Source: Cyanidioschyzon merolae (taxonomy: Eukaryota). Taken from it: a DNA stretch of 64,000 bases. Shown piece after piece: positions 20,057 through 63,331 of this stretch. The stretch's first letter is position 1. Every line of letters begins with the position of its first letter. Position numbers and translations under genes: made by a program. The stretch lies in NCBI GenBank assembly GCA_000091205.1, contig AP006485.2. The stretch is one strand, 5' to 3'. The notes beneath the pieces were generated by a model. That model did no database searches and was not told the origin of the DNA. It was given only the letters and a program-made list of their open reading frames with translations.

Positions 20057-20173
20057 AATGGGCGTTGGATTCGCCTTTCAAACGGAAACGATCGTTTCGT
20101 TGTGACTGGTGCAGAGAGGCCTCGGCATGAGCTTACGATCAAGTCACCAACGGCTGACGTCGACTATTTTTCG

Positions 20174-26431: not shown

Positions 26432-26779
26432 TCATCTTGCCTTACGCTGCGCGCCTTCTTGGGTATAGAGACGCCTGCTGCACCCCCGTGCCAGGGCCAT
26501 ATGGAACGCTCGTAATTGCGTTACGCGGGCGTACACCATCAAGTTTCGGTTTCTGGCTACGCTCATCAACACCAGCATTTGCGGGTTCTTTTTCTCATTC
26601 TGCTTCCCTCTCCTTCCTCTAGTCGCCGGCTTGGAATACGCCGACGTCTTCGGTTCCTGTAAAATCGTCGCCAGCAGTCGACAGATGTTGATGGCAGTGT
26701 TCGTGTCTCGATGTCGCAGCCTTCTGCTGCTGTTCACGCATTTCATGCACAGGCTGGAGTTGCGATAGAGGCATTGCAT
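26432..26779 (-). mobile_element. decayed TnpB/Fanzor-like gene fragment, copy E (Zn-finger half + RuvC-III)
   Basis: Minus-strand ORF MQCLYRNSSLCMKCVNSSRRLRHRDTNTAINICRLLATI... A CxxC (CMKC) lies 10 aa before RDTNTAINI, which is encoded at 26684-26710 (rc cgagacacgaacactgccatcaacatc). This is the canonical C-terminal architecture of TnpB/Cas12/Fanzor RuvC-III. Confidence 0.55.
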
Positions 26780-29691: not shown

Positions 29692-30633
29692 TCAGCGGCT
29701 GCCGCGACGACGCTGTCGGTTACGGCGCTCGTTTCGTGACCCGGTCCGAGCTAGCTTCTCAGGTTGGCGCCCTGTTGTGAAGAGCTGTAGATCCCCGGTT
29801 ACCGCGTCGATGCGACCCGTTGCGGCTGGCCCGATCGCGATACAGGTGCATGTACGTGGTGGTACTTCAGTGTGACCTGCGTCCACCACTTGAAAGAGCG
29901 GGAGACCCAAAGCGCGCGCCTCACGCGCGAGCGCCTCTAGCATCCGAGCGCCGCTGCCGCTCTCGGCAACAGATGGTGCAGCAGTTGATGCGCGGTCCGA
30001 AGCAGGGCGCTTGAACGTCGACAACACAACAATTTTCTCACCTTCACGCTTCCAACGATTGCATACGAGAGCTTGCTCAGTATCGCCCGTCGATTCGACG
30101 CAGTGCCGGCGATAGGCACCAACAGCGGCGTGTGCAGCCTGCGCAGCCAACTTGCCTGCACTCATGGGTATGTCGTTTCGACATACGATCACAAGCTTTG
30201 GGGCATCTAAATCTTCGGGACGCAAGACGACACCGGCGCTGTGGGCAACCACATGATGATTACGCGGATTTTCATTGGAGGCACTGATCTGCAGGCTCGG
30301 GTCTGCTGTATGCAACAGAGGCCTAGCAGAACAGACCGCGGAAAATTGCAGGTGCATAGGTGCTGCGGACCGCAGCTCCGCGGGCGGTTCCTGTGGAGTC
30401 CACACGAGCTCCGATACACCTTCATCTTGCAAACGAGATCGCAAAACACTGCCAACTGCAGCGTCGAGCGCATAGACGTACCCGTGGAGTCCGCTCTTAC
30501 CGAGGCTGCTCGCAAGCGCCACTCGCTGCGGTAGCAGCTGCTGATGCTGATGCTGCCGCCGGCCCGACTGCTGAGTCATGTGTTTCGGTCCCAGCGGGCA
30601 AAGAGCGCAACCGTTCCCCGAAAAAAGAACCAA
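29692..30633 (-). CDS. PTH2: peptidyl-tRNA hydrolase 2 (PTH2) with a ~150-aa N-terminal extension
   Basis: KLVIVCRNDIPMSAGKLAAQAAHAAVGAY ... KIVVLS ... GLPLFQVVDAGHTEVPPRTCTCIAIGPAATGRIDAVTGDLQLF is co-linear with the PTH2 domain (KMVLVVRTDL.MGKGKIAAQCSHAA ... I.DAGRTQIAPGS.TVLAIGPGP...D.VTGHLKLY). Confidence 0.75.
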   Translation of the reverse strand: MVLFSGNGCALCPLGPKHMTQQSGRRQHQHQQLLPQRVALASSLGKSGLHGYVYALDAAVGSVLRSRLQDEGVSELVWTPQEPPAELRSAAPMHLQFSAVCSARPLLHTADPSLQISASNENPRNHHVVAHSAGVVLRPEDLDAPKLVIVCRNDIPMSAGKLAAQAAHAAVGAYRRHCVESTGDTEQALVCNRWKREGEKIVVLSTFKRPASDRASTAAPSVAESGSGARMLEALAREARALGLPLFQVVDAGHTEVPPRTCTCIAIGPAATGRIDAVTGDLQLFTTGRQPEKLARTGSRNERRNRQRRRGSR

Positions 30634-33600: not shown

Positions 33601-34420
33601 ATGTGAGGATGAACGCGAACGCTGACGGCTTCCAGTAAAAATATTCACTGGCGAGCATCGAGGGCATGTGATTCCCGCCTGGAGCAACGCCCCGGCGTGC
33701 CATAGCTCGGCATTCTCGCAAGACCAGAGCACCGATTCTACGCATCGGACACCAGCCTCTGGACAATTCCTGAACGAGTTCTGTGCTCCATTGTTCGGTG
33801 TTCTTGTGTATTGCCATGACATCTCCTGTGGAGTCGAATGCAGCAGCGCCACGGATGTGATCACTGTGAAGATCAACCTGCTTTTCCGCGCACAATCCTT
33901 CTCATTATTGCAAGAATAGAATCCTACTGCAACCGGCCTAGAGCAAGGATCACTAGTCCGTCAGCGGTGCCTGTTGCAAGCGTTGCACGAAACCCCGGCA
34001 GCAGCTGCAGCAGCGCCTGGGACACTCGAACTGCACGAACTTTTGCACCACCGCCGCCCCTATCAACGTACCTTACCGACTACTACGGAACTCTCTGTGG
34101 CGCACCTGAGACACGATCCTGGTCGCGTGGACGCCCTTCTAGAAGCATTCGATACCAGGACGACTCGCAAAACTCGGCGTATGGACCACAAAATGCCAGC
34201 GCCTCGAAATTACAGACTAGCGCATTGAGCTGAATCCGGTGCAGCGGCAGCATCAACGTCATATTGGTCCAGGCGTTGCTGCCCGCGCGACCTTGGTGTG
34301 AACGCGCGCTCCCAGTGCCCAAGTTTGCTGTGGACGCTTGACACTGCAGTTGTCTGCTGGGATTCAGTCGTATTGCACAGGTTGAACGGTTGAGAAGCAC
34401 ACACACTCGTCGAAACTGTT

Positions 34421-36379
34421 ATGTCTTTGGAACGCTCTAGCGCACAACGGGTTGATGCTTTGCGCAAACTCCTAGCCGCTCGCGGACTCGATGCATACCT
34501 GGTCCCTTCGGAGGACGCGCATGCCTCTGAGTACGTTGCAGCTTGTTTCCAGCGGCGGGCATTTCTGACCGGATTCACGGGCTCCGCTGGTACTGCAGTC
34601 GTTACGCGCGACCGAGCTTTTCTCTATACTGACGGGCGCTACTTTGTGCAGGCGGAACGGGAGCTCGACCCCAACGTGTGGGAACTGAAGAAACATCTCA
34701 TAGATCCACCGATGGAAGAGTTTTTGGGCACTGTGCTGGCTTCCGGATCGCGCTTGGGGTTTGATCCCGAGACGCTTTCCATCAGTGCCTTCAACAGGCT
34801 GCGCAAAGCGCTGCAGCAGCACGGCATTCACCTGGTTCCTGTTACGAACGAACAGGACGGCACGGAGAGCGCTAGCACGCGCTGCAATTTAGTGGACCTT
34901 GTATGGGGAGCCGCCCGACCAGCGGAACCTCGCTCCGTCGTTTTTCCGCATGCGCTCTGTTTTGCTGGTGAGACGGCAGCGAGCAAGGTGAGCAGGGTCC
35001 TCAACGACATGGCGAAAAACCGGGTGGACTGGCTTGTTGTTTGCGCACTTGATGAAATCACCTGGCTCTTGAACTTGCGCGGAAATGACATCGAATACAA
35101 TCCGGTTTTTCTGGCGTATGTGCTCTTACATCGACGCGCTGTCTCTGAGGCCGAAAACGAGCCCGCTGGTGACTTGTACCTGTATACCGAGCAGGAGCGC
35201 CTCAACGCTGAGGCACGCGAGGCCCTCAAGGCCCTGAAAGCTCATCTAAGGCCGTATGAGGCTATCGCCACCGACCTGGAACAGCTCATCGCTCTGGGGG
35301 ATTGTGTCTGGTATGATCCGAGTCATACGAACTGTCTTATTGGACAAAAGCTCCATCTCGCGGAGTTCAGCGAAGCAACCCTGGACAGCAACCCTGCATC
35401 CGCCAAGCATGCAAGGCATTCAATTTTGGCAAAGGCAACCCCTATCGGCCTGTTCAAAGCTCGCAAGAACGAGACGGAGCTGGCTGGTATGCGCGCTGCA
35501 CACCTGCGGGACGCCGTGGCGCTCTGTCGCTTCCTGGCGTTGCTCGAGCACAAGCTCGTCGAACAGGGCACCACAATAAATGAGATGGAGGCTGCCCAGC
35601 TCCTGGACGAGTTTCGATCGCAACAGGAGCATTTTGTTTCACCGAGCTTTCCAACGATTTCGAGTGCTGGTCCGAACGCTGCGGTTATTCATTACAGGCC
35701 GTGTGCGGAGAGCGCTCGACCGATCACGAGGGATGCGATCTATCTGGTCGATTCAGGAGGTCAGTATCTGGACGGCACTACCGATGTGACACGAACGCTG
35801 CACTTTGGCACGCCTACCGCATTGGAGCGCGAGTGCTTTACGCGCGTGCTCAAAGGCTACATCCAGCTGGAGCAGGCATGCTTTCCTCCGGGTACTACTG
35901 GTCAACAGTTGGACGTTCTGGCGAGGTTGCCGCTCTGGCTCATCGGCCGCGACTATCGGCACGGTACTGGACACGGCGTCGGATGCTTCCTGAATGTGCA
36001 CGAGGGCCCGCAAATGATAAGTCCACGGTCTTCTGCCGGTGAGACGCCCCTGGAACCCGGCATGACTGTAACGAATGAACCAGGCTACTATGAGAACGGA
36101 CGGTTTGGCATGCGATTCGAGAATGTTCTGCTGGTTGTCCCGAAGCTTCATCCCGATCACTGCATGGACCGGAAAGCATTCCTGGGGTTTGAAAACATCA
36201 CGCTGGTTCCAGTAGAGCGCAAGTTGCTGGATACCAAACTTTTGACAGAACAAGAGATCGCTTGGATCGATTCTTATCATCAGAGCGTATGGAAAGCTGT
36301 GGCGCCGCTTGTTGCGGATGACCCGTTAGCAACAAAATGGTTGCATCAACAATGTCGATCATTGCGGGCGACATGTTAA
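34421..36379 (+). CDS. Xaa-Pro aminopeptidase (M24B, APP1/XPNPEP1-like)
   Basis: 652-aa ORF with a creatinase-like N-domain and the M24 pita-bread C-domain. Metal-ligand motifs include HGTGHGVGCFLNVHEGP and ...NEPGYY... ENV. Confidence 0.85.
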   Translation: MSLERSSAQRVDALRKLLAARGLDAYLVPSEDAHASEYVAACFQRRAFLTGFTGSAGTAVVTRDRAFLYTDGRYFVQAERELDPNVWELKKHLIDPPMEEFLGTVLASGSRLGFDPETLSISAFNRLRKALQQHGIHLVPVTNEQDGTESASTRCNLVDLVWGAARPAEPRSVVFPHALCFAGETAASKVSRVLNDMAKNRVDWLVVCALDEITWLLNLRGNDIEYNPVFLAYVLLHRRAVSEAENEPAGDLYLYTEQERLNAEAREALKALKAHLRPYEAIATDLEQLIALGDCVWYDPSHTNCLIGQKLHLAEFSEATLDSNPASAKHARHSILAKATPIGLFKARKNETELAGMRAAHLRDAVALCRFLALLEHKLVEQGTTINEMEAAQLLDEFRSQQEHFVSPSFPTISSAGPNAAVIHYRPCAESARPITRDAIYLVDSGGQYLDGTTDVTRTLHFGTPTALERECFTRVLKGYIQLEQACFPPGTTGQQLDVLARLPLWLIGRDYRHGTGHGVGCFLNVHEGPQMISPRSSAGETPLEPGMTVTNEPGYYENGRFGMRFENVLLVVPKLHPDHCMDRKAFLGFENITLVPVERKLLDTKLLTEQEIAWIDSYHQSVWKAVAPLVADDPLATKWLHQQCRSLRATC

Positions 36380-37842
36380 CATGAGCGACACTATAAATGT
36401 ATTGGTGCTGTGGATCGTACCTGCTCTGCAGACCTAGATGGTATGGGTGTATAGAGGTGTCGTTGCAACGTCCAAAACTTCGAAGCGCACGCAGACTCGT
36501 TACGGGATGCTGGAGCTCTGAACTATGTTATACATTTTCGCAGGCATCGATTCCTCTTTGAAGGCCCGCTTATGGCCACGGACGCACAGAGCGCTCCTAG
36601 TCGGGCTTTCCAGAACCAGACCACTTGCAGTTCCGAACGGCTCTGTGCACCACATAGAGACGATGCACCATCGGCCTCCAGATTCTTGTTCTTTTTCGAA
36701 AGACGACATGGTCTGCTCCGGGAATCGAATATACCGCTACCGCCCAGTGGTGTTTAGGTATGCGCTGCTTTCGAGACTCCTTCGAGAACGATACGATCCC
36801 ATACACTGCGAAGCTTTTGGAATGCCTTGTCACCTACCATAGAACATCGTTCCAGTTTGCCACTGAGCGGTGCACAGGGAGCCTGCTCATCGTTTCACCG
36901 TATGCCGCAGAAGCTAGCTCCAGCCGCAGTCAAGACGCAGCGCCTGTCCGCACCAGGGCAAGCGTTGTCCAGTACGCGGAAGCGCTTCTGCCTTTCCAAC
37001 CGGCAATACAACGCCAGTCGCTACCTGTCGAGCCAGTTCAGCAACGAAAACGTCGCTCAATCGTAGCTGCAAGCGCAGTGCAACGTACACGCCGACGCTC
37101 GCTGAAAGCATAGTAGACGGGGCTACGTGAGAGGCTCGCGAACCTCCGCTGCTCCCCAGCGCTTGACTGCTGCTTGGAGAGCGCCCGCTGGACTCATGTG
37201 CTCTCTTCCGCTTGAATCCAAAGCGTAACAATAGGTTAATCAGTTTCTATACGCTATTGATACCGGATCAGAGCCTCCAAACTGCTTTAGTTCGTCAATA
37301 GTATGCCGAGCTCCGCGTCAAATCGTCTGCCTCCAGCTTGAAGCAGAGACACCTGTGCCCGTTTTCGACCGCATAGCCCCGCAGCCACAAGGCACCTGGC
37401 GAGACCCCGACTTGAGGAGGCACTCGAGTGTCAACGCTGCGCCCCCGATACACAGCGTTATCTGTTCACCTGCTCGTGCACCACCTGCTTTCTTCCGAAT
37501 GAGCTGTCACGAACTGACGAAGACCCTCGTGCCTCAAAACCTGTGCTGCATGGAGACTCGTCAGCAACTACAATTCGCGCGTGAAGTGGCAACCTCCAGA
37601 GTTTCCCCACTCATCATAGTTCTCGATCTCTTCTTCATCCCCATACTTCTCCGTTTCAACGAAATAGAGCCTGTGGGGCACAACGAGAAACAGCCGATGA
37701 TGCCCCTGCTTCAATACCGGACCCCGGCCGACGGTCGCAGCGCACCGCTTCTCCGCAGGCTGTCTTCTAGGCAGGCTGCTTTCGTGCACAGCGGCTTGGT
37801 GCTGCGCATACGCATAGGTGTGCTGGACTGTAGAAGGCTACG

Positions 37843-39240
37843 ATGCAGGGCACACGGTCATTAGAGCCATGGGACAGTGATAAGCTCGCTTTTCTGCACC
37901 GACCTTTCCTGTCGGCTCGGCGGCGGCTGCGTTTGCAGTGCGCTCTGAACGAAACCGTACGTGTTCAGGTTCCTCGCGGAAACGGCACACTTGGTGTTAC
38001 AACTCATAGCGCTAAGTTTGCGCTGCAGACGGCTACTGGACCGGTCGAGATCAGTCCAGGGTCTAGAGGTCGAGACGGTTTTCCGGTCTGGGGGTTCAGT
38101 GCTGCAGTTGTCGCTGCAGGACTCGCTTCGACCTGGCTCTATCGCTACGTTGGCGAACGCTATAGCTTTCCGCTGCTCACAGGCACCCTGCAGGAACTTC
38201 CTGCAGCGGGCGATCGTCTTCTGCGTCTGGTCGAGCGCTTGATAGCTGCCGAGCATGAACTCTCTTTCGATGAAGCAGCGGATGCGATGCACTGCATGCT
38301 GGAAACGGTTGGTGAACATCCAGCTCGCGTCGCTGCGTTTCTGGTGCTACTACGACGAAATGGTGCTGAAACTGGCCAAGTACTCGCCGGTATGGCGGCA
38401 GCGCTTCTGGAAAGAGCGGTCCTCGTGTCGACGGGCGATCTAGCCACTTTGGACATCGTCGGCACCGGTGGTGACGGGTCCAATACTGTGAATATATCGA
38501 CTGCAGCAGCGATCGTTGCGGCTGCTTGCGGAGCACGTGTTGCCAAGCACGGTAATCGCTCTGCCTCTTCAAAATGCGGTTCAGCTGACGTACTCGAAGC
38601 GCTTGGCGTTGCAATCGATCTGGGACCTGAGCAAGTTGCTCGCTGCATCGCCGAGACTGGTATTAGCTTTCTGATGGCGCCGCGTTTTCATCCACAGTTG
38701 GCAACAGTGGCACCACTACGGCGATCGCTGCGAGTGCGCACAGTTTTCAACAACCTAGGGCCACTGCTAAACCCGGCCCGAAGCCGCTATCAAGTCATTG
38801 GGGTTGCAGCACCGGAGCTCATGGAGCCCATGGCTGAGGCTGTGGCTCGCCTCGGAACCGAGCGCTCCTGGATTGTGCACTGTGCAGGTCTGGATGAAAT
38901 GGCGCCGATCGGTGCGACAGAGGTCATCGAAGTACGAAAAGACGTGCCTCCATGCCGGTTCCGAGTCGAGCCCGAAACACTAGGCATGCCTCTGTGTACC
39001 GTAGAGGATCTCGTTGGTGACGATTGTGCAGCCAATGCGGCGACGATCACGAGTATTTTGCAAGGCGCACCAGGCCCCATTAGCAATGCGATCATTATGA
39101 ATGCCGGAGCAGGGCTTGTCGTGTACGGTCTCGCGGAGACGCTACAGGATGCCTGTGACATGGCAGCGAACGCGCTGATGAGTGGCGCGGCGTGGGAGAC
39201 ACTGGAAAAGTGGAAGTCCTTGAGCCGGCAGCTTCAATAA
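37843..39240 (+). CDS. anthranilate phosphoribosyltransferase (TrpD / Trp4)
   Basis: DIVGTGGDGSNTVNISTAAAIVAAACGARVAKHGNRSASSKCGSADVLEALG is the classic TrpD glycine-rich PRPP loop and KHGN..(S)S..GSAD motif. The N-terminal ~100 aa are extra (targeting?). Confidence 0.85.
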   Translation: MQGTRSLEPWDSDKLAFLHRPFLSARRRLRLQCALNETVRVQVPRGNGTLGVTTHSAKFALQTATGPVEISPGSRGRDGFPVWGFSAAVVAAGLASTWLYRYVGERYSFPLLTGTLQELPAAGDRLLRLVERLIAAEHELSFDEAADAMHCMLETVGEHPARVAAFLVLLRRNGAETGQVLAGMAAALLERAVLVSTGDLATLDIVGTGGDGSNTVNISTAAAIVAAACGARVAKHGNRSASSKCGSADVLEALGVAIDLGPEQVARCIAETGISFLMAPRFHPQLATVAPLRRSLRVRTVFNNLGPLLNPARSRYQVIGVAAPELMEPMAEAVARLGTERSWIVHCAGLDEMAPIGATEVIEVRKDVPPCRFRVEPETLGMPLCTVEDLVGDDCAANAATITSILQGAPGPISNAIIMNAGAGLVVYGLAETLQDACDMAANALMSGAAWETLEKWKSLSRQLQ

Positions 39241-40366
39241 TTAGACCGCGGAATGACGATTCGTCGGGAATGGCGAATACGCGGCGATACGCTTTGGACA
39301 CACGCTGGTACCAGCACACGAATCCTGTGCAGCGATGCGAAAAAACGCTCATCTGGAAGCGTACGAGTCGCTGGCACCGTCTGCCTGGAGGCGTATGCGA
39401 ATCCGACCTTGCGTGACCTACAGATGGTTTATAAACCGCTGATTCAAAGCTTTTTGATGAATACGCATTTCATCCTGTTGGGCGCTCCTATCGGAAACGA
39501 AGAATGCCTTGTCGTTGGCTGCATCCACAAGTCTAATGCGGCAGCAGTTGCAGCCAGAACCAATTGTCTGCTCCTTGAGCGCTCGCTCTTCGCTTGACCG
39601 ACTAGGGAACCTTCGACGGATCCGAGGCACAAGATGCACCTTCTGAAACCATACAAGCTACTGTCTTCGGTCTGTGACTGGTCCCAGGACTGATGATTCA
39701 GAAAACGCCTCTTATTGGAGCGTTCCGAGATACGTATCAAGCGCGAAGGCACCTGTCAATAAGCAATTGGCATCGACAGATAGACTCGTGCGCAAGTTGG
39801 AAAACACTGTGAAGCGACGCTACAAGCCCAATGTTGCATCTTGCCACCGATATTTAGAATGATGCACCAGCAGCAGCAACAGCAGCAGCCGGCCGTCTCA
39901 GCTCCAGCACACCCTAGTGGCGAAACGCGACGCTCGTCCGAACACGCGCAAGTCAGTGGGCGGAAGAGCCCTCGAGTCTCTCCGACATTTGCTGCGCTTC
40001 CCGTTTCCTGCGGATGTAGTCCTTCTGCTGGCAAACTTCGTAAGCGTGCCTCAGTTCGGTGCAGTGCCAAGGAAGATAAAAGTGTTCGCGGCGACAGCGG
40101 TTCAGTGGCACGAGAAGGTGCGCGCACCCGTCGCGCCACTCCAAAGGAACCTTATTCGCGATGCAGAAAGCCTCATCAACAGGTTTCGGATCGGTATCGA
40201 CGGATTCGACGTGTCTCCCCGTCATGGAAACCAGTAACGGGGTGCAAACAACTGCAACGCTAACGAGACGTTACCTCGTCGAAGCACTTCTACGGCGTTT
40301 CCCGCGCACCCGCGACGCAGTTGTGTGATGGAACGGCAGCGGCGATGCGTGCCGTCTCGCTGGCAC

Positions 40367-41059
40367 GCATCCGAGCACATGAACTTGGAAGTCGGAGGTT
40401 TGATGGATCGTTTACCGCGCACTGAAAAAAAAAGTAAGAAGAGAAAAAGCGCACAATCGGATAACGCTGGACAAAGTAAACGTTTATTCAGTGAACGTAA
40501 AAGCATCCGTGCGCATGAACTTGGAAGTCGGAGGTTTGATGGATCGTTTACCGCGCACTGAAAAAAAAGTAAGAAGAGAAAAAGCGCACAATCGGATAAC
40601 GCTGGACAAAGTAAACGATTATTCAGTGAACGTAAAAGCATCCGAGCACATGAACTTGGAAGTCGGAGGTTTGATGGATCGTTTACCGCGCACTGAAAAA
40701 AAAAGTAAGAAGAGAAAAAGCGCACAATCGGATAACGCTGGACAAAGTAAACGATTATTCAGTGAACGTAAAAGCATCCGAGCACATGAACTTGGAAGTC
40801 GGAGGTTTGATGGATCGTTTACCGCGCACTGAAAAAAAGTAAGAAGAGAAAAAGCGCACAGTCGGATAACGCTGGACAAAGTAAACGTTTATTCAGTGAA
40901 AGTAAAAGCATCCGTGTGCATGAACTTGGAAGTCGGAGGTTTGATGGATCGTTTACCGCGCACTGAAAAAAAAAGTAAGAAGAGAAAAAGCGCACAATCG
41001 GATAACGCTGGACAAAGTAAACGATTATTCAGTGAACGTAAAAGCATCCGTGTGCATGC
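40367..41059. repeat. minisatellite: ~135-bp unit x ~5.1, head-to-tail. It sits immediately 5' of, and co-oriented with, Fanzor-like relic copy B.
   Basis: Unit ...gcatccgagcacatgaacttggaagtcggaggtttgatggatcgtttaccgcgcactgaaaaaaaaagtaagaagagaaaaagcgcacaatcggataacgctggacaaagtaaacgattattcagtgaacgtaaaa recurs with period 135-136 (gaacttgg at 40381, 40517, 40652, 40787, 40922). Each unit has an A8-9 tract and an imperfect inverted repeat (cagtgaacgtaaa / tttaccgcgcactg). The ORFs on both strands across it are periodicity artefacts (135 = 45 codons). Confidence 0.95.
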
Positions 41060-41271
41060 GTGAGCCATAACATCATGTTTCACGTGAACCATGTTCCATA
41101 CGCAGATGCGTGGCATCATATGCTTTTTCGCGGTTTATTGCTGCTGTGTTCGATACCTGTGCTCATTCGAAGGAATAGAGAATCCACAGGAACAGGATAG
41201 AGATGGAACAAGGGGATTCTTGGAGTTTGCCATCCCTGGTATAAACAAAAAACGAAAGAATCCTCTTCTCC

Positions 41272-41547
41272 GTGATCATCGAGCGAAGAAGGGCACCTGA
41301 CGCAGACGAACGCGAGGAACAGGTGCGTTCAACCAGCGACAACGAACGTGTGGAGCTCGTGATCCGACACTTTAACGTCGTCATCAATAGCAGGAGATGT
41401 ATGGCGTTGAAGACAAGACCCGAGGAGCTGTGGCCAGCGAAATCTGTGGGGCAATCTTTCGGGCTTGACGTGTGTAGCGAGAAACCAAAGCCGATAGCAG
41501 TCGATCGGTCAAAAAAGACTGGTAGGCGTCTGTGCCTGGGTATCTAG
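41272..41547 (+). mobile_element. decayed TnpB/Fanzor-like gene fragment, copy B (RuvC-III region; catalytic Asp mutated)
   Basis: ORF ...VELVIRHFNVVINSRRCMALKTRPEEL...KTGRRLCLGI. RHFNVVINS (41365-41391) aligns to RDFNAAINT of copy D, and 41330-41420 is ~75% nt identical to 61270-61360 and to 52770-52860. The D->H change means it is inactive. Confidence 0.5.
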
Positions 41548-43709
41548 TTACACTCCCGCGTTGCGGAACATGTTCGGTACTAGTGAACTGCGTAGATGCA
41601 GAGGAAGGAAACACGTCGATTCATGCCAGATGGTCCGCAGGGCACGAGGCGCCTCAGCGAGCGACGGAGCACACTCCTTTCAAATACGTATCGCTTTTGC
41701 CGTGGATGTCAATTGTCTTTCCATGGACTTTTCGCAAACCAATCAGCCATGCACGTGCGCTGTGCTCGTTTCCAATTAAAATGAGAGACTGGACATCGCG
41801 CCCTGTTCCTGGTTTGAGCGTTTGCCGGACTTTTTGTTCAGAAGTGCAGACTCGACATTCGAAGTTGAACAACAGGAAATGATGGATTCATATCCGGTGT
41901 TACGATTCTCGGTCGTGTTGTCGACGTTGCTCGACTGTCTCTCTCTCTCTCTCCATCTCTCTCGCTGGAATTCTTCACGTCACCGGTATCAGGATGATTT
42001 CCGACGATCTCGAAAGGCGGTTTCGCAAGATAACCGCTCTCATGATGCAATGCGCATGCCCATGCATCCATACTCGTCCTTTCCTTACATGTACTGCAGC
42101 AAAATCGCGCATGCCTCAAGTTTCCAATCCTTGTTTCTCAAGATATCTCGGGTGCGTAGCCGTGCGAGCGCCTGGATTGAGGACCAAAACTACTCCGTGT
42201 TGTCCCTTGACGACCTGTTCACAAGCTCATGCCAAAACTTTGTTGAACTCGTTATCTCAAATAATCAATTCTGTTCCAAAGACAAACCCTCGATGCCTTT
42301 ACGTCATCCCAGGACCATCATTCTGCAGCAGCACGATACCTCTACCAGGTAATGCTCCCAGAGAGACCTATCTCTTGTGTTTGCCTGGGAAAGCTACTTG
42401 GACTCGAATCTGCGTCATCGCATCGATCGCTTCCAAAGGAACGCTTGTCACCGCTGTGCACGAAGCGAACGTACATGGATCGAAAGTCCCCGACTTTGCT
42501 TTCCAGTCTGGATTTAGCTTCCCATAGATGCTTCATCATGGACAACATCACGTGCCGCAAATTATCCATCGCATGCGAAAGCGAGCACTCGCGTGTGCAG
42601 CTGACGAAGTACACTCCCGGCGGATCGCTCGGGCCAGGCCCATGATCACAGGGCATGGTGCTGGACACGGAAACATAGGAGAGCATCGAGGTGAGCTTTC
42701 TGTACCTGTCAAGAGCGTCTGCGTTGTTCTGCAGAAAGCGTGCACACGCAGCAGACCGGCGTTCGGAGTAGGATGAGGTGCTGTGGACCTCACGAGATAT
42801 TTGACCACAATTGATAGTCTCCGCTGCGAACAGCGCACTGCGGATGTACATACAAAGTAGATCAATGTGGCAAGCGAACCGTATATCGCAACTGCTATCC
42901 GTGCATGAACGACGCTGCCAAGAAAAGCAAGATAGCAAATCATGACGTGAACGCTCCCACGAGCATCCTACAACTGCTGAAACCAGAGGCGACGGAAAAA
43001 GTAGAGAGCCGCGCATTTAAGGCTGGAAACAAGAGATAAGCAGGGGAAGCAGTCACAGAAAAATTCCGCAAAGCCCGGTACTGATGACTGCGAAAAGCGA
43101 CCAGCGTTTCTCTAGATACGCCCGAGTCAGGCAAGTGCACCCGTTCCGGTGTATTCTCCTGACACGGGTGCAATTGCCGACCCGCGGCGGTGAACCTCGC
43201 AAACACATTCCTCCGTCGGACACGTTCACGCAGTCGAGGGGCTCTCGCTCGCCAGCCATCACTCTGCGAAAGTTTTGGTGATGCAGAAAGCGCTCCCAGT
43301 TACGAAACACTGCAACCACCGCGCAGACTCTGGTAACTGTGCGTCGGTCTGTTCCCGCTTATGACGCGCAAATGGCAAGGCCGTGCTCCTCCGAAACGCA
43401 ACTCGTCGTCGTGTCTCCACCTGCACGTTGGACCTCGTTTCCCAATGTTTTTCTCTGCAATTTCGGGGATGCTCACCAACCTGTCCCGGTCTGCGTCACC
43501 CTGCCGGGCTACCACGAGATACTAGGGCACATTCCGTTGGCCATTGACGTCCGCACAACCACCGGGAAGGTGCGATCGGTTCCCGCCTTGTCGTCTACGC
43601 TTCCGCTCTTTGATAGGCTCTTTTCGCCGTGCATCCTTGCAAATCGTCTTTCAGGCTTTCTATGCGGTCACACTGACGAGCGCGCCTGCCGACGTTCGGT
43701 AATCCTCGT

Positions 43710-44372: not shown

Positions 44373-47354
44373 TTAACCAGTGCGAGCGTAGAGTCCGCGT
44401 TCGTAACGAACGCAACCAGCGTCCAGCAATCTATTCAAACATGCCGCAACATCGCCGAGCGTCCCACGAAACGGTGGATCCGTACAGAACATGGTCAGCA
44501 TTTGGTGCATGCGCTCCAATGTCAGAGATTCGAAGTTGGCAAGCATGCCGAGAATATAGTTGCCAATCACCTCCTCGGTATTATCGTCCTTGTCTTGGAT
44601 CTTTTCGGTCGCAGGGCCAGGTACAGCGCTCAGCGCGTCTGCAATGGGATCTATCTGGGTAGCATCGATAGGAGACGCTTGCCATTCCCGCGTATTTGGC
44701 TCGGTTCCTCCGTGCTCAACGATTTCATAGAAATCACCTTCGTCGACGAGACGCAGGATTCCATGGCGAGACCAGAAACGGAGCGCGCCTTGGAGAAGCG
44801 CGTCATACGGCGGCAACGAAGATGCCGCATCAGGCGTAGCATCTCCGCCGGGTTCAAGCAGGAAAAGCTTCTGCCTGAGCGCATTCCGACTCCAGCGTGG
44901 TTGTTCAGCGAAAAGCTCCAAGAGCATTGCATTCAGAAGCGGGACGTTCGTAAACTCCACATGGCGGCCATCAGCAAATTCGAGCTCCAGATCGCAAACT
45001 CCTGCTACTGGAATCCAGTGCAGGACTCGGGGCGCTCGCTGGCGCGCGAAACTCTCCTGGCATAAGCGGATGAACTGCTCGAGATCCGCATTCAAGTGAT
45101 GGGCATAACTTTTGAGGGTTGCAAAGTACTCCGATCCGGTCAGATTCGGAGCAAGCAGCGACTGAGTGCGTTCAGGTGGCCCAAAGTGAGTCCCCGCCTC
45201 GGGGCACAGCAAAGGCCAATAGAGGTATGAGATGAACACTAGTTCTGTTTGCTGCTTGGAGTCTAGTTCCATGTGTTTTTCTTGGCGAATAAAATTCATG
45301 AAACGTCGGGAATCCGAGATATCCTTGAGCATAATGTCTGCATCGTTCAGGCTGGTCTCTCCGAGGCGGACCTTGAGCACCTCCAGGTTACGTACGAGAA
45401 GCTCAAACTCATAATCCATGACGGTGGTCAGTTTTCGTGCAAGGTAAAACTGAAACTCAGCTATGAAACGCTCCCGTCCTCCACACACACCCATGAGGAT
45501 GTGCAGGATATCGTGTTGGGCAAAACGATGCGCAATCTGTCCGCGGGTCTCCAGACCAGAGACGGAGAACATGCCATCGGACGAAGCTGGGTCGGCGTCC
45601 GTCTCTGACCTGCTATCGTCGGTATCGTCGGAGGAGGCATCCTCGAGGTGGGTATATGCATGGAACCTTGGGCCCGGACAATGATCTATTTGCTGTTGCT
45701 GTTGCTGTTGCTGCCCATTCAGGGCGAAAAGTTCCGCGTACTCGGGACTCGTGAACAGCTCCACCAGGCGCGTCATGGCTTCGGGGCACTGTCTACGCAA
45801 ATACTGTCGCACCAGGGTCGTAGCTCGCGCAAGCAGATATCCATGAGGATCAACCAGGAGCAAAGACTGTATCGTATTCACAAAATGGTGCAAGATATCA
45901 CTCGTAGAGGCACCAGGATGCAGGAGTCGTCGTTCCAGTTGGCTACACAAACTCTGGGTTGTTTCCTGGAGTGCATCTGTGCTCTCAAGGCACCGCCGTA
46001 TATCCAAAAGCGGTGCTTTTGAGGCTGGATATTCAACGATAAGATCAAAAAGCTGCGATAAGCGCGCATGGAGCAGCGTCTCATGGGTGAAATAACCTAC
46101 CTTGCGCTCAAACGCTGAACCACTGGTGGACTGCACGCCTTCTCTCATAGATATTTCAGCATCTGGAGGATCGAGCGGCATCACAGCTACCCATGGTTGT
46201 AGAAGCTTCTGGACCCATGCGAGCAGGTCGTCGAGAACGCCTTCGTGAAGCTCATCCCGCGCAAGCCGGTAAGCTCGCTCTTCAATAGACTCGTAGATCT
46301 GAACTACAACGAGGTCTCTCCATTGATCTAGGAGCCCCAGCACAGCAAGCTGCCTCTCGAGGTCCGCTAGCAGTAGTGGAACTGCTTGGGCGCAATCTCC
46401 TTCAGAGCGTAGGTGGCGCTGCTGTGCTCTCAGCGAGTCATACTGGCTGGGTACATGCCCGAGTTCGTCCGAGTTTCCTGTAACCACTTGTTCTTCAGCG
46501 TCCTGGAGCGCCCAAACAAACATACTGCGTACAAGGCGTCGCATCGCCGTTTGCGTCACTTGCTGTAGGATGACGGCCTGTGCATCGACGGAGAGCGCAC
46601 CCCGCCAGTAGAGCCGCCTAGATGGATCTAGACGCTCAGCCACGACGTCCATGACTTGAAGTGCTTGTTCGAGCAGTTCTGCAGCCTCCGCGATACACGC
46701 TCTCGTAGCCGCTGGGTCGAAGCTCGTCGGGGTGTCGCAGTCCGCAGTCCCGGTTAGACGCTTCCTCGAGTCGTTCCAGGGAGCGCAGGTGCTATGGGTG
46801 CACCCAAGCACCGGCTCCAGAAGCGCTTCCCAAACTTGTTCTCGCACGAATTCCTTCAAAAATAATACCGCATAGCGACAAAAAGGAACTGAGGCGCGTT
46901 GCGATGTAGACACGAGCCACCGGAGTGCATCCTTGAGCTGCTGCCTCTCCACAGTCGAGTGCTGCGTTGGGTGTCTTCGCTCCAGCAGTGCTTCCTGGAG
47001 ATGGTGCACTGCGGTCTCCCAAGCGTCAGGCAGTGATCGTGAGGTTTCTGGCAACTCCTGACTTGACTGCATCGCAGTCAGCGTCTCGTCAACGTTGCTC
47101 AGCGCAAGCGAACCGCCCGCAGCCGGCACCCGGAGCGACGCTCGTACCGGCTTGTGCTCAACGAGACCGCCTCCAGCGTGACTTTCTGACTTCCAGCGGT
47201 GTCGTTCCGGTGCTCTCACGGAAGGTGTCGGACAACAGTTCACCGTTTGGAACCAAGTTGCTCCGTTGACGCTCGAGCCGGTGCTCGATAACGTCCTCAC
47301 CTGAACCAAAGCGTGCAAACGAGTCGTTACGTTCCGGCTCGGCCGGGCAGGCAC
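44373..47354 (-). CDS. anaphase-promoting complex subunit 2 (APC2; cullin-homology + C-terminal winged-helix)
   Basis: 993-aa ORF. The cullin-homology segment is FIAEFQFYLARKLTTVMDYEFELLVRNLEVLKVRLGETSLNDADIMLKDISDSRRFM (cullin pattern F..fY...LAkRLL....s.d.E..ml.kLK..cG). The APC2-type C-terminus is LANFESLTLERMHQMLTMFCTDPPFRGTLGDVAACLNRLLDAGCVRYERGLY. There is an internal poly-Q. Confidence 0.65.
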   Translation of the reverse strand: MPARPSRNVTTRLHALVQVRTLSSTGSSVNGATWFQTVNCCPTPSVRAPERHRWKSESHAGGGLVEHKPVRASLRVPAAGGSLALSNVDETLTAMQSSQELPETSRSLPDAWETAVHHLQEALLERRHPTQHSTVERQQLKDALRWLVSTSQRASVPFCRYAVLFLKEFVREQVWEALLEPVLGCTHSTCAPWNDSRKRLTGTADCDTPTSFDPAATRACIAEAAELLEQALQVMDVVAERLDPSRRLYWRGALSVDAQAVILQQVTQTAMRRLVRSMFVWALQDAEEQVVTGNSDELGHVPSQYDSLRAQQRHLRSEGDCAQAVPLLLADLERQLAVLGLLDQWRDLVVVQIYESIEERAYRLARDELHEGVLDDLLAWVQKLLQPWVAVMPLDPPDAEISMREGVQSTSGSAFERKVGYFTHETLLHARLSQLFDLIVEYPASKAPLLDIRRCLESTDALQETTQSLCSQLERRLLHPGASTSDILHHFVNTIQSLLLVDPHGYLLARATTLVRQYLRRQCPEAMTRLVELFTSPEYAELFALNGQQQQQQQQIDHCPGPRFHAYTHLEDASSDDTDDSRSETDADPASSDGMFSVSGLETRGQIAHRFAQHDILHILMGVCGGRERFIAEFQFYLARKLTTVMDYEFELLVRNLEVLKVRLGETSLNDADIMLKDISDSRRFMNFIRQEKHMELDSKQQTELVFISYLYWPLLCPEAGTHFGPPERTQSLLAPNLTGSEYFATLKSYAHHLNADLEQFIRLCQESFARQRAPRVLHWIPVAGVCDLELEFADGRHVEFTNVPLLNAMLLELFAEQPRWSRNALRQKLFLLEPGGDATPDAASSLPPYDALLQGALRFWSRHGILRLVDEGDFYEIVEHGGTEPNTREWQASPIDATQIDPIADALSAVPGPATEKIQDKDDNTEEVIGNYILGMLANFESLTLERMHQMLTMFCTDPPFRGTLGDVAACLNRLLDAGCVRYERGLYARTG

Positions 47355-51400: not shown

Positions 51401-51934
51401 GAGAATCGAGATTGCATACAGAGAAAGTTCGGATATCGCCAAAAAACCAGGAAAGGAGCAAGTGTTCAAGCGCTCTCTCATATTCTGACTGATGTATTGC
51501 ATGTCTCCCGAGGCGCACTCAACGCCTGTCGGTTCACCGTCGAAATGGAATGTGTTTGTAGAGTTATGCAAGCTCTCCCGGTGATGCACATGATTTGGCC
51601 CTCATGCCCGCCTCTGGTCTTTCAACTCAGTATTGTTTCACCCCTGCTGTGGTGTATGGCAGGCGATCGAAATCCCGATGCAAAGCACTGGAGAGATCGT
51701 GGACGAACTGCCTGTAGGATATGTATTCTTCATTGAACAGTTCAAGGAGGAATGCATTCCTGCTTCCAGTCGGTCATACCGTAGTTCTCAGATAGTTGGC
51801 GAGCGACGACAGAAATAAGCTTAGAGGATCCGCCCCAAAACTGGTATTGACAAAGACTGCCTGCAGTCGATGGTAGATAACGACCCGTTGATCACGTTAC
51901 GGAAAGCAAAAGCGACTCTAGCAGACACATCGGC

Positions 51935-58304: not shown

Positions 58305-59504
58305 AGAAAGGCAAGAAGAGCGTTGTTTCTAGGCAAACGTAGTGCTGAACGTCGACGGCAGACCGGATTGGTTTGGCGATTTCTCACACAATCACGAAAC
58401 GTTTCCATGAACCGTAGACCCCAGAATGCGGGATGGATGGGTATTGGTAATCGAAAAAAAGTGCACATCATGCTACTGCACCAAGTTCTATTATTCATAC
58501 TTGCTTTCGAATGTGCTGGTCGTTTCGTATGTTCTATCGCGCGCCGAGTGCCTGCTGTGAGCAGCCGCCTTAGCGCCTAGACCGCTGGAACAGATGCATC
58601 ATGGAGACAAGACGGCTTTGCCGTACCAGTGAGGGCGTCGGATCGAGGAACGCTTCACCTGATACGGAGCCGGAGTACATGGTCATTCTGGGCGCTTGCA
58701 AGCTGCGCAGACAGAACGACTGCCTGCAGAAGCTCGAAGCGATATGCTAGGAGTCTACTGCGACCAGCGCGATGCTCAGAAGCAGCCGAACCGCCGCTAG
58801 TCCCAGAATGAAGTGTGTTGCGGACGAGCTGCTCAGATCTCATTACAACATCCTCCACTTTAGAGGCACACGGAGCATGAGCCACGCAGACTCGTCCGGC
58901 TTGCGGGACCTTCCGCCTGTATGGTAAAATTTTCGAAATGCGGATAGCGCTCCCCCATGCAACGTTTACCATATAGAGGAGAAGAACCTGTCCTATCGTT
59001 GTTATTTAATGGTTCGTTTCTGTTCATGGTTCTGTATAGCATATTCGATACGCGCACCTCCATGTCTGGCAGGCATGAGATGCGGCGCGCGTTTCGCAGT
59101 GGAAGAGAAACGCGATCCTCATCGTTATCATGTTGCTCTAAAGTACAAGGTGTCTTTGCGTTGCAGTCGTACCGAACCATAGATTTCAATTCAGTTGTTT
59201 TTCAACCCTCAAGCAAGTATATTCAAGTGATTTCTCGCGGTTTATAGCTGAAGCGTTCAACGTGTGTTCATTTTCAAAAAATAAAAAAGGGAAGTTAGCG
59301 AAAAGCAAGTTGAGGATCCCGAAGGGCTTGTGCCGCCGGCTGCCAGAAGAATAAAAAGCATGGCGGAGCAAAGAGCAACAGGAAAAGACGAAGAAGCAAG
59401 AGAAGGAGGCCCTACGCCAAAGGCTGCAAGAAAGACGACACTGCGACGGAATGGTGCTGGAAGCCTGTCTTCTTGGACATATTAATGATCCATACTAGGA
59501 AAAG

Positions 59505-61410
59505 TTGCGAGAGGCCATCAGAAACCGGACCGAGTCGTTCTCCAGGAGGATTATAAAGTCTTCGTCAGGGCTAATGCATTTGGTGAAGGATATGTACGAA
59601 GACGTGACGGACATCAAAAAAGTCGAGATTGCAGAAGAATTTTGCGACCAGGCCTTTATTCCTCACCTGATGCTTGGCACCGGGGAAACGTCGACGAAAA
59701 ATGAGCGAGTGTATGCCTTCCATGAAAATCACTCCGAATTCCGCTTCGACGGTACTCGACACATGCCTGACTCGAATATTTACACGTACGGAGCAATGGA
59801 GGGCCTCACGAACCTGAAGAACCATATGATCGTGAACCTCGAACGTTTCATGATACGCACCATGTTTGCGCTGAACCCCGGCCTTTCTCGCCAGTGGATA
59901 CGGGCCATCATCAATGGCATCAAGAACGCTCGCCAGAATGGACAGGAGATCGAATTCGTCGACAAAAAGACATCACACAGGAGCATGAATAATGCTTCTG
60001 TAATTCGTGCGGCTATTCAAGAGCATCGTGCGGTCTTGGGGCTTGTCAAATCCAGCTTAAACGGTATCAGATATGAAAAGAAAATGAAGAGAAACGGTAT
60101 ACCCTCGTACTGTAGTATTCCGTGTTTCTGAACAGAGACCTCGAACGCAAGGCGGAGATCGAGCAGAGTGTGAGGAGAAAAATGAAGAGTCAGCGAAACG
60201 GAACGCTGCCCTAATGGGTAAGCGCTTCAATGTCGTTCCGCTATGCAACATCGAGTCAAATGTTGTGACAGTTGGCCCGCTACGTACTTTACAGCAAAAT
60301 GAAGGAGATCTATCCGGACTTCGATGTAAGCAGCAACGAGTTTACGGGCGAAAACCGGGAGACGTACTGGGTGAATATGTTCGATTTCAAACGTCTGAAA
60401 ACGAGCAAACAAAAGTTATTTACTGAGGTGATCGAAGCCGATGGAGCAGCCGTGTGTGTACACGATCGGCGCTTGAAAGTGGATCGTCCCATTGCATCTT
60501 CATGCTTCGCCGTCGGCGAGGCATAAAGAAAAAGAGGAGGCGGATCCTGCGACGCATGCGGTGCAGGATAAAGACTTTGTTGTTGGCGCGGACCCTACGA
60601 ACACGAATATTGTTACCGTCGCTGTACCCAAACATGCGGAAGATGGTATCAACGGCAACTTCAGAAACACATGCGTCTGTTGAGGCTCTCAAGAGCTAGA
60701 GGTTACCGAGAATGCGGTATAATGAATGCGAGGAAAAAAATTGAGAAGTGGAATGCAGGAATGAAGGATCGCCTGGAAGCTATGAGGGAGGTGACGAGCC
60801 GAGAAGCGGGCTTTGAAGCTTTTATGAAATTCATGGAAGTTCGCGTGGCTCACTGGGAGGCGCTGTGGAAAGAGAATACAAAGCCCCAGTGGGCTCGTCT
60901 ACGTATGAACCTGTACCGTAACAAGTAGCATGCATTCGCGAATTTTTTCAATGAGTTGAGTGCCCTGAAGGAGGACGAGAGACAGAGGCTCGTAATAGCA
61001 TGCGGAGCAGGGCGCTGGAAGACCCAAAAAAGCGAGTGGACCAGCTCCAACGACGATGGTGTACAAGTAGTGCGCAACGCGTTTCATTACGATACCTGTA
61101 GATGAGTTTCGAGCATCGTATACGCACCATGAACTGGGATGCACACTTCAGAGAGTGGAGATGGAAAAGTGTCAGAGAAGACCTTGGGATACAGAGAAGT
61201 GCGGAGAGCTGACAGAGCAGCAAACGTAAAGAACGGCGAAAGTTCGTGGACTCCATGCATTAGTAAGTACAACCAACGGCAAGCAACGTATGGAGTTTGT
61301 GAATCGCGACTTTAACGCAGCAATCAATACCAGGAGATGTGCGGTGATGGAAAGAAGACCTCCGGAGTTGACAAGAGAGAATTTTATGGACAACCTTCTA
61401 CGATGGAATT
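59505..61410 (+). mobile_element. most complete decayed TnpB/Fanzor-like gene, copy D (RuvC-I-like, Cys-rich, RuvC-III segments in order, interrupted by stops and frameshifts); the 5' boundary is uncertain
   Basis: An AT-richer block carries + strand fragments. DFVVGADPTNTNIVTVAV (60573-60626) is a RuvC-I-type G-x-D-P/L-G/T...A motif. ...RLVIACGAGRWKTQKSEW... follows. HHELGCTLQRVEMEKCQRRPWDTEKCGEL (about 61125-61211) runs to the stop at 61227. Then comes GKQRMEFVNRDFNAAINTRRCAVMERRPPELTR with RDFNAAINT at 61305-61331. The RuvC-I to RuvC-III spacing of ~730 nt is as expected for TnpB-like nucleases. Confidence 0.55.
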
Positions 61411-61584
61411 AGATGAGGAAAGTTGAAACCAGTAGTAGGTGGCCGGTCGAGAAAAACCGACAAGGCGTCTGCACGTCGCCCTAAAGGCTTCCACGCTATC
61501 GGCGTGACGTATGTGCGTTCGTATACCCGTTTTCCGGGTGGCAGTTCCCGCGCACAACGTTTCGCTTGTAGCGCCGCGACTCGA

Positions 61585-62247: not shown

Positions 62248-63331
62248 ATCGAGGCTCGGGATGGATACGGCTTTGGGAGTTGAGCACTTCTGCCTCCGCA
62301 AGCTGCCGTTCACGCGCGACTTGACATGGTTCGACGGCGCTGCTTGCTCACGCGTTCAACGAAGCGCGACTCGAATGATCGTGCAGGTCGCGGTCATGGT
62401 CTGTCGCGTTCCCTAAACATTTAAAAGGACGTGACGCATTGCCCTGTCGTGAATATGCTGTCCCAATGGTCTGCTCTAGGTCTATCTGTCGGCATGTCTC
62501 TCTTGCTACGAATACGGATTCGTCCTTGAGGCATCGCACGTGCGTCGCTTGAGACCCGAAGCCATTGAATGCAAGAGCAATATCCCTATCTTTTCAGTAG
62601 GCTTCTAGAACTGCAGAAAAAACTCGCGTCCGATACGATGGATTGGGCGGAGCGGTTGCAAATCCTCGAAAGCGGAAGACTTTCGTGTCCAGTGCAACAA
62701 TCCTGTGATGGTGGACGCGTTCATCCCAGGCCGCTGCTTTCACACCATTGTCCTGAATTTTCCATGTTCATGTTCAACTCCTGTTCAACTTAAAATCTCT
62801 TTGAAACTCCCCAATCAACGCTGAACCCTTGATGCTCCGTGATGGAGACCACGGATTCGCTCTACTCAAGGCAGCAACGACCGACATGGAAGTGAGCGCA
62901 GCCAGCGCAGTCGCCACTGCACCAGAATGTCGGATAGCGTTCACAAATCGCCAGGCTGTCGCTCTGCCCGAAACCGATACGGCACTTGCGCGTGCACCAG
63001 GTCCGCGACGCCTGGAATCGATTTTTTTTTCATTGACAAAACGTTTCCATTGGCCAGCGTTCTCCGATTATGCGCATTTTCCTTTTCTTACTTTTTTGTG
63101 TTATTTTTTCAGTGCACTGTGAAGTATCTATCAAACACCCTACCTCCATGTTCCATTACCTATACTTCGTCTCGGATATTCTGGACGTTTCATACGTCCT
63201 ATCGTGCGTGGGATCGATGCTGTGCATCCGCGGCTCGCCCGCGAATGAAGCGCGATCACGACGCGCGCATCTCATGTCCGTTTTGATCAAACGGCTATAT
63301 ATATCAGATTTGACGAATTTTCGGTGGCATT

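What the first reader, a model, noticed from the sequence alone, without database searches (positions are those of the whole stretch)
40367..41547. 135-bp minisatellite embedded in or abutting Fanzor-like relic copy B
A 5-copy tandem array (unit ~135 bp, with an A8-9 tract and an internal imperfect inverted repeat) ends ~300 nt upstream of the copy-B RuvC-III segment, on the same strand. By the spacing seen in copies C and D, this position falls inside the former nuclease ORF. Either the element body was expanded into a satellite, or the array derives from element-internal sequence. Transposon-derived minisatellites are a known route to satellite birth. The repeat could also mark a structured RNA region, since the omega-RNA scaffolds of TnpB/Fanzor overlap the gene 3' region.
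Basis: partly seen in the sequence, partly recalled or inferred. Interest (0 to 1): 0.55.

Follow-up and report, generated by a model that had tools for sequence, protein, structure and literature searches.

The report
Minisatellite from Fanzor transposon left end
A 684-bp tandem array just upstream of a red-alga NDUFB7 gene is five copies of the first ~135 bp (left end) of an old Fanzor-carrying transposon, so it is an ordinary transposon-derived minisatellite and not a remnant of the nuclease gene or its guide RNA.

Summary
The array is real: window 40367-41050, unit 134-136 bp, 5.1 copies, units 94-99% alike. Independent assemblies of the same locus also contain it.

The genome is a Cyanidioschyzon-type red alga. 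The window holds relics of the published Fanzor1 transposon CMe-1A (Bao & Jurka 2013).

The array unit does not come from the nuclease ORF or the 3' guide-RNA region. Reverse-complemented, it matches the extreme 5' terminus of a CMe-1A/TE-N2-like element:
- A profile of six family 5' ends, built without the array, hits all five units on the minus strand (E 2e-11 to 7e-10).
- A two-copy variant-subfamily profile gives E about 1e-20 to 7e-22.

The array is therefore inverted relative to copy B. It has no significant or conserved secondary structure. It was found at this locus only and lies 141 bp upstream of NDUFB7. Its unit composition varies between populations; one spanning contig has 2.1 units.

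Best reading: a transposon left end amplified by unequal exchange or slippage, probably neutral. It is a new member of a known kind, and interest is low.

The parts
40367..41050 (-). Tandem array: 5.1 copies of a 134-136-bp unit. Each unit is a T-run plus positions 1 to about 100-125 of the 5' terminus of a CMe-1A/TE-N2_CMe-like Fanzor1 transposon (variant subfamily with a T-rich insertion). The strand given is the element's orientation.
   Evidence: TRF. nhmmer profile of six family 5' ends without the array hits all five units on the minus strand, E 2e-11 to 7e-10; the variant profile gives E 7e-22 to 4e-20. The unit is 79.7% identical to L015 2406-2523 (E 3e-23) and 74.4% to window 63029-63153 (E 2.5e-18). 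Alignments.
40226..40366 (.). 141-bp spacer between the array and the NDUFB7 start codon. No detectable transposon body remains here.
   Evidence: Local alignment against family 5' regions is no better than dinucleotide shuffles (14-265 of 300 shuffles score as well).
39962..40225 (-). NDUFB7 (complex I subunit B7) gene. It is transcribed in the same direction as the element orientation of the array.
   Evidence: tblastn with the L001 orthologue gives 76% over 89 aa, E 2e-45. Pfam NDUF_B7 on the called genes.
41121..41167 (+). Marginal remnant resembling CMe-1A consensus 837-884 (just upstream of the Fanzor ATG). Possibly part of an internally deleted copy B.
   Evidence: blastn 77-90% identity, E 0.001-0.011 only. 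Weak.
41323..41544 (+). 'Copy B': a 3'-terminal relic of a CMe-1A Fanzor1 element (consensus nt 2871-3083; aa 656-726, including RuvC-III).
   Evidence: blastn 68.5%, E 1e-16; tblastn 46% over 71 aa, E 4.5e-11. Alignment.
41757..43052 (+). Relic of a second, more degraded Fanzor-like family ('Y'). ORF remnants on the + strand at 42098-43000.
   Evidence: nhmmer E 8e-89 to the 26.6-kb copy. tblastn with the reconstructed ORF, E 9e-66. Consensus ORF against the CMe-1 family profile: hhalign 94%, E 1.3e-7.
63031..63251 (+). Single, non-tandem 5'-end fragment of the same variant subfamily. It is the closest in-window relative of the array unit and bridges the unit to the canonical CMe-1A consensus.
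   Evidence: Unit-like over 63029-63153, then 90% identical to consensus 84-153 (E 5e-21). Profile hit E 9e-47.
58391..61477 (+). Near-full-length CMe-1A copy (frameshifted Fanzor1 ORF). Reference for the canonical 5' end.
   Evidence: blastn 82.9% over consensus 3-3089.

Best explanation
The array is a transposon-derived minisatellite. A CMe-1A/TE-N2_CMe-like element lay in minus orientation immediately upstream of NDUFB7. It belonged to the non-TIR Fanzor1 transposon family of Cyanidioschyzon, in a subfamily whose left end carries a T-rich insertion. Only its 5'-terminal ~135 bp survived (shown). That segment was then duplicated head-to-tail and expanded to five copies by unequal exchange or replication slippage (inferred). 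This happened long after the family's activity: units are 94-99% alike, but only 74-80% like their nearest relatives. The array encodes nothing, forms no conserved RNA structure and is most likely selectively neutral. Its unit composition, and probably its copy number, vary between populations. It merely abuts, in opposite orientation, the separate 3' relic 'copy B'.
For: - The array is real and reproducible in other assemblies.
- The published CMe-1A consensus (PMC3627910, supplementary file 2) maps to the window as one near-full copy plus fragments.
- A profile of six family 5' ends, built without the array, hits each of the five units on the minus strand at profile positions 2-104 (E 2e-11 to 7e-10). 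It hits nothing else in 64 kb except the two known 5' ends. A profile of the two variant copies gives E about 1e-20 to 7e-22.
- Two independent elements at unrelated loci carry the unit-like sequence as their true terminus, continuous with the CMe-1A body. These are window 63031 and L015, the latter with an intact 752-aa Fanzor1. Both start T7-9|CATTGAC with unrelated DNA upstream.
- The syntenic locus of a related species has TrpD-NDUFB7-APC2 but no array, and a 1.0-kb instead of a 4.15-kb NDUFB7-APC2 spacer.
- The exact 24-mer core occurs only at this locus in 241 million metagenome records. The array-encoded ORF has no homologue among 5.8 billion proteins.
- The proximal unit has at least three variants across assemblies, and one spanning contig has 2.1 units.
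- There is no structure signal.
Against: - Direct alignment of one unit to the canonical consensus is only marginal (score 26 against shuffle mean 16.9, sd 2.4, max 29). The homology rests on the profile and on two variant-subfamily copies.
- The amplification mechanism and neutrality are inferred, not shown.
- The 2.1-unit allele could be a short-read assembly collapse.
- The complete genome could not be searched, so other left-end arrays cannot be excluded.
- The unit starts at the element's very terminus and points toward NDUFB7. That could hint at a mechanism-linked or regulatory origin.
Confidence: 0.8

Rival explanations
1. One reading: the array is expanded nuclease-ORF or 3' omega-RNA-scaffold sequence of copy B, on the same strand.
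For: The array lies 314 nt upstream of copy B's RuvC-III codons. One weak tblastn extension (P0160 aa 549-682 to 41089-41430, E 3.5e-4) suggests coding remnants may reach towards the array, but not into it.
Against: - The unit has no similarity to any part of the 3.17-kb consensus except positions about 1-100, and in the opposite orientation.
- Forty-three family proteins give no tblastn hit in 40367-41050.
- Fanzor omega-RNAs derive from the right end.
- There is no thermodynamic or covariation support.
Confidence: 0.02
2. The left-end multimer is a by-product of the family's still unknown transposition mechanism. Examples would be re-initiation or one-ended events of a rolling-circle or single-strand 'peel-and-paste'-like process, rather than generic slippage.
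For: The unit begins at the element's exact 5' terminus, T-run included. CMe-1A has no TIRs, undetermined TSDs and unknown class (PMC3627910). The family is prone to internal tandem duplication: a 75-nt coding repeat occurs in 1-5 copies.
Against: - None of the five other 5' ends examined is tandem.
- No body is attached.
- Units are far younger than the family.
- The array starts with a partial unit, as expected for ordinary unequal exchange.
Confidence: 0.07
3. The array was co-opted as a cis-regulatory module (promoter or enhancer, or a nucleosome-excluding A/T tract) for NDUFB7.
For: It lies 141 bp upstream of the ATG, in the same transcriptional direction as the element. It is present in all sampled populations of this species.
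Against: - The related species lacks it.
- Unit composition, and apparently number, vary.
- The Fanzor ORF starts about 900 nt from the left end, so the terminal 135 bp is not obviously the element's promoter.
- No expression data are available.
Confidence: 0.08
4. Reverse direction: a host sequence resembling the array was captured as the 5' end of the variant subfamily.
For: Only two variant-subfamily termini are known so far.
Against: - Positions 1-45 and about 70-100 of the unit are shared with canonical CMe-1A 5' ends, a family reported at about 150 copies.
- The orthologous locus in a relative lacks the sequence.
- The unit is found at element termini at unrelated loci.
Confidence: 0.03

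Closest known systems
CMe-1A (Fanzor1 element) and its non-autonomous partner TE-N2_CMe of Cyanidioschyzon merolae (Bao & Jurka 2013, Mob DNA 4:12, PMC3627910)
   Same: The unit is homologous to the first ~100-125 nt of the element's 5' end. That 5' region is shared by CMe-1A and TE-N2_CMe (the 5' 635 bp are 95% identical). The window contains a typical 83%-identical full copy and 3' relics.
   Different: The unit belongs to a variant with a ~25-nt T-rich insertion replacing consensus positions ~46-69. It is only 74-80% identical even to that variant. It is tandemly repeated, with no element body attached. A tandem left end was not described for the family.
Transposon-derived minisatellites and satellites in general. 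Examples: TE-derived tandem repeats in the human genome (PMC3389668); retrotransposon-associated minisatellites in soybean (PMC3305785); monomeric 5' tandem repeats of mouse L1 (own knowledge).
   Same: A short internal or terminal TE segment is amplified head-to-tail into an array with inter-individual variation.
   Different: The source here is the left end of a Fanzor1-carrying, non-TIR DNA element in a 16-Mb red-alga genome. The array is tiny (5 units) and confined to one locus.
Fanzor/TnpB omega-RNA (OMEGA systems; Saito et al. 2023, PMC10432273)
   Same: The array sits next to Fanzor relics.
   Different: Omega-RNAs come from the transposon right end, at or after the stop codon, on the coding strand, and have conserved structure. 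The unit is from the left end, inverted relative to the adjacent relic, and unstructured.

Membership tests
CMe-1A / TE-N2_CMe-derived sequence | Significant sequence homology to the family consensus or copies | tested here: met
   nhmmer with family 5'-end profiles that exclude the array: E 2e-11 to 7e-10 (six copies) and about 1e-20 to 7e-22 (variant pair), minus strand. blastn to the L015 terminus: 79.7%, E 3e-23.
CMe-1A / TE-N2_CMe-derived sequence | Complete element (3.17 kb with a Fanzor1 ORF, or 635-bp TE-N2) with both termini | tested here: not met
   Only positions about 1-125 are present. No body lies in the 141-bp flank and there are no Fanzor protein hits in the array. It is a fragment, not an element.
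Fanzor/TnpB omega-RNA scaffold | Encoded at the transposon right end, overlapping or just downstream of the nuclease stop codon, on the same strand | tested here: not met
   The unit maps to the left end and lies inverted relative to copy B. The definition comes from PMC10432273.
Fanzor/TnpB omega-RNA scaffold | Stable secondary structure conserved among family members | tested here: not met
   Fold z-scores are -0.3 to -0.8 for units and +0.6 to +1.3 for the 63-kb homologue. RNAalifold finds 0 pairs on either strand. Rfam finds nothing.
Fanzor/TnpB omega-RNA scaffold | Transcribed and bound by the nuclease | not testable with these tools
   No RNA data are available.
Minisatellite / VNTR | Head-to-tail tandem copies of a unit of tens to about 100+ bp | tested here: met
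   5.1 copies of 134-136 bp.
Minisatellite / VNTR | Copy-number or structural polymorphism between individuals | tested here: inconclusive
   There are three proximal-unit variants among 11 assemblies. One spanning contig has 2.1 units against 5.1. Short-read collapse cannot be excluded.
Fanzor1 (for the neighbouring relics, not the array) | RuvC-I/II/III plus zinc-finger nuclease homologous to solved Fanzor1 | tested here: met
   The CMe-1 family profile A3 has a single PDB hit, SpuFz1 8GKH, at E 3.4e-5. The NRDFNAAINI motif is present. The family is published as Fanzor1.

The most novel reading that the evidence does not exclude
The tandem left ends are a molecular fossil of how CMe-1A-type Fanzor1 elements move. 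These elements have no TIRs, no determined TSDs and no known class. The unit starts exactly at the element terminus, which would fit repeated initiation at, or one-ended copying of, the left end by a rolling-circle or single-strand transposition machinery. If that is right, the array gives a first clue to the family's classification.
Probability: 0.06. Interest if true: 0.55.

Novelty: new member of a known kind. Interest (0 to 1): 0.2.

Why it matters
- It corrects a tempting mis-annotation: the array is not a guide-RNA scaffold or nuclease remnant.
- It gives a clean, small example of satellite birth from a transposon terminus in one of the most compact eukaryotic genomes.
- In practice, the array is a candidate strain-typing VNTR for Cyanidioschyzon. 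It is also a recurrent breakpoint for short-read assemblies beside NDUFB7.
- The wider context may matter more than the array itself. About a fifth of this window is made of relics of three Fanzor-like families.

Tried and rejected
- **Pfam on relic fragments:** scans of translated fragments around the array found no nuclease domain. Even the bona fide CMe-1 protein scores only E 0.5 on Cas12f1-like_TNB, so Pfam is insensitive for this family.
- **Unit against the canonical consensus:** direct pairwise alignment was only marginal. More family 5' ends were needed, obtained through.
- **tRNA link:** ARAGORN found no tRNA. Rfam found one tRNA at 63332-63424, next to the single 5' fragment and not next to the array. 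A relaxed Rfam scan of 39.5-44.4 kb gave nothing meaningful. A tRNA or permuted-tRNA link was considered and dropped.
- **Element body left of the array:** none was found.
- **More spanning assemblies:** exact-match look-ups of the TrpD ORF and of two right-flank ORFs returned nothing. TRF failed to report the two-unit array in L014, although the alignment and the repeat finder show it.
- **Array ORF:** a protein search found no homologue.
- **Centromere or subtelomere satellite:** rejected. The locus is a single array between conserved housekeeping genes with only a mild GC dip.
- **Assembly artefact:** rejected.

Full report
**1. Observation**

Tandem Repeats Finder reports a single array at window 40367-41050: period 136 (also 270), 5.1 copies, 96-97% matches. 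Only one other minisatellite exists in the 64-kb window.
- The five full units are 134-136 nt long and 94.1-99.3% identical pairwise.
- They contain an A7-A9 tract and a 10-bp internal inverted repeat.
- The finding's end coordinate (41547) is not the end of the array. It is the end of an ORF through a downstream relic.

The array is not an artefact.
- Ten independent short-read contigs encode exactly the same NDUFB7 protein, and all terminate 68-407 nt upstream of its ATG, just before or inside the array.
- A 61.8-kb metagenome contig (L014), 99.1% identical to the window, crosses the array with identical flanks.

**2. Genomic setting**

The array lies between eukaryotic housekeeping genes.
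- A TrpD-type anthranilate phosphoribosyltransferase is at 37843-39240 (+), NDUFB7 at 39962-40225 (-), and APC2 at 44373-47354 (-).
- The best named TrpD relative is Cyanidiococcus yangmingshanensis at 68%. Unnamed assemblies are 99% identical. The source is therefore a Cyanidioschyzon-type Cyanidiales red alga. This is an inference, supported by the transposon evidence in section 3.
- A syntenic contig of a related species (L001) has TrpD-NDUFB7-APC2 with a 1.0-kb NDUFB7-APC2 spacer and no array. The window's spacer is 4.15 kb.
- The array starts 141 bp upstream of the NDUFB7 start codon.

**3. The Fanzor premise is correct**

Bao & Jurka (2013, PMC3627910) describe one Fanzor1 family in C. 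merolae, CMe-1A.
- The consensus is 3,169 bp. About 150 copies exist, each about 80% identical to the consensus. There are no TIRs.
- Its 5' 635 bp are 95% identical to the non-autonomous TE-N2_CMe.

I took the consensus from their supplementary file 2 and mapped it to the window.

| Window position | Strand | What it is | Support |
|---|---|---|---|
| 58391-61477 | + | Near-full copy | 82.9% over consensus 3-3089 |
| 41323-41544 | + | 3' fragment, "copy B" | Consensus 2871-3083; aa 656-726 |
| 52645-52977 | + | 3' fragment | aa 616-727 |
| about 63031-63251 | + | 5' fragment | Consensus 84-153 at 90% |

- The RuvC-III codons of copy B lie at about 41364-41394, 314 nt past the array.
- A profile of family proteins has Spizellomyces Fanzor1 (8GKH) as its only PDB hit, E 3.4e-5.

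**4. What the unit is**

The unit's only other relative in the window is an inverted single copy at 63029-63153 (74.4%, E 2.5e-18). That copy runs straight into CMe-1A consensus positions 84-153 at 90% identity. Its first 45 nt match consensus positions 1-45.

A second, independent element at an unrelated locus (L015) has the same layout.
- It carries an intact 752-aa Fanzor1.
- A stretch 79.7% identical to the unit (E 3e-23) is followed by consensus positions 84-270.
- Both copies start "T7-9|CATTGAC" with unrelated DNA upstream, so this is the true element terminus.
- Relative to the canonical consensus, they and the array share a T-rich insertion of about 25 nt.

Direct unit-to-consensus alignment is only marginal. 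I therefore built profiles that exclude the array.
- Six family 5' ends hit each of the five units, on the minus strand, at E 2e-11 to 7e-10.
- The two variant copies give E 7e-22 to 4e-20.
- Nothing else in the window is hit except the two known 5' ends.

Each unit thus comprises the T-run plus positions 1 to about 100-125 of the left end of a CMe-1A/TE-N2-like element in minus orientation.
- The 141 bp between the array and NDUFB7 retains no detectable element body.
- The 270-bp spacer towards copy B holds only a marginal match to consensus 837-884 on the + strand (E about 1e-3).

The array and copy B are therefore different fragments in opposite orientations.

**5. Not a structured RNA**

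- Fanzor omega-RNAs are transcribed from the right end, at or after the stop codon (PMC10432273). The unit comes from the left end.
- Units fold no better than dinucleotide shuffles on either strand (z -0.3 to -0.8). The 63-kb homologue folds worse than shuffles.
- RNAalifold on units plus five homologous 5' ends predicts no conserved pair on either strand. The 10-bp inverted repeat is private to this array.
- A relaxed Rfam scan gives nothing.

**6. Distribution and variation**

- The 24-nt core of the unit occurs in only two of 241 million metagenome records, both at this locus.
- The ORF that stays open through the array has no homologue among 5.8 billion proteins.
- None of the five other family 5' ends examined is tandem.
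- Across assemblies, the NDUFB7-proximal unit occurs in at least three variants:
  - AGCACA/A9 in the window, L003, L005 and L011;
  - TGCGCA/A9 in L006 and L007;
  - TGCGCA/A8 in L013 and L014.
- L014 has 2.1 units against 5.1 in the window.

Structural polymorphism is shown. The copy-number difference is suggestive, but it could be a short-read assembly collapse.

**7. Explanation**

Shown: the array is a tandemly amplified transposon left end at a single locus. It is non-coding, unstructured and variable.

Inferred:
- An element, or a fragment of one, once lay upstream of NDUFB7, and its body was lost.
- The terminal ~135 bp was duplicated and expanded by unequal exchange or slippage, well after the family's activity. 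Units are 94-99% alike, but only 74-80% like their nearest relatives.
- The array is neutral.

Rivals kept at low probability:
- a by-product of the unknown transposition mechanism, since the unit begins at the exact terminus;
- co-option as an NDUFB7 regulatory module, given the shared orientation and the 141-bp distance from the ATG.

**8. Novelty**

Transposon-derived minisatellites are well known (for example PMC3389668 and PMC3305785). The source family is published. What is new is only this instance: a left-end array of a Fanzor1 element. I rate it a new member of a known kind, with low interest (0.2).

Noticed in passing
window 2189-3475(-), 19318-20573(+), 26600-27899(+), 41757-43052(-), 50411-51510(+), 63640-63995(-): Six copies of a ~1.3-kb dispersed repeat ('Y'), 66-70% identical to one another, lie in intergenic spacers. 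A majority consensus restores a 319-aa ORF on the opposite strand ending in a zinc-finger-like region plus 'NRDLNAAINI'. That ORF matches the RuvC-II to RuvC-III part of CMe-1 (blastp E 1e-5; hhalign 94%, E 1.3e-7). This looks like a further, older Fanzor-like family beyond the single family reported for C. merolae in 2013.
   Followed up: partly
window 31766-33589 (+): Relic of another, distant Fanzor family. It shows about 33-37% aa identity to P0160/P0161 (themselves 42-43% identical to CMe-1) and covers most of the ORF.
   Followed up: partly
whole window: Relics of three Fanzor-like families (CMe-1A pieces including the array ~4.6 kb, Y ~6.6 kb, third family ~1.8 kb) sum to about 13 kb. 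That is ~20% of this 64-kb window and a large share of its intergenic DNA, in a genome usually described as nearly repeat-free (my sum).
   Followed up: no
L015 5149-5449, L017 4357-4726, L018 4803-4952; consensus nt ~2117-2195: CMe-1A-family Fanzor1 ORFs carry an in-frame 75-nt (25-aa) tandem repeat just upstream of the RuvC-I 'GADPG' motif. Copy number varies: 1 in the consensus, 2, 4 and 5 in metagenome copies. L015's copy is an intact 752-aa ORF.
   Followed up: no
window 63332-63424 (+): A tRNA gene (Rfam RF00005, 48 bits, 93 nt) that ARAGORN missed, so it probably contains an intron or is otherwise atypical. It sits ~80 nt downstream of the truncated CMe-1A-like 5' fragment.
   Followed up: no
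window 10937-11498: A second minisatellite: 82-bp unit, 6.9 copies, 99% identical. Its origin was not examined.
   Followed up: no
L003-L014 versus window 26880-41356: All public assemblies of this locus (Logan runs and JGI hot-spring metagenomes) are 99.0-99.3% identical to the window and none is identical. The window's strain therefore differs slightly from every sampled population, or its own genome is absent from the collections.
   Followed up: no
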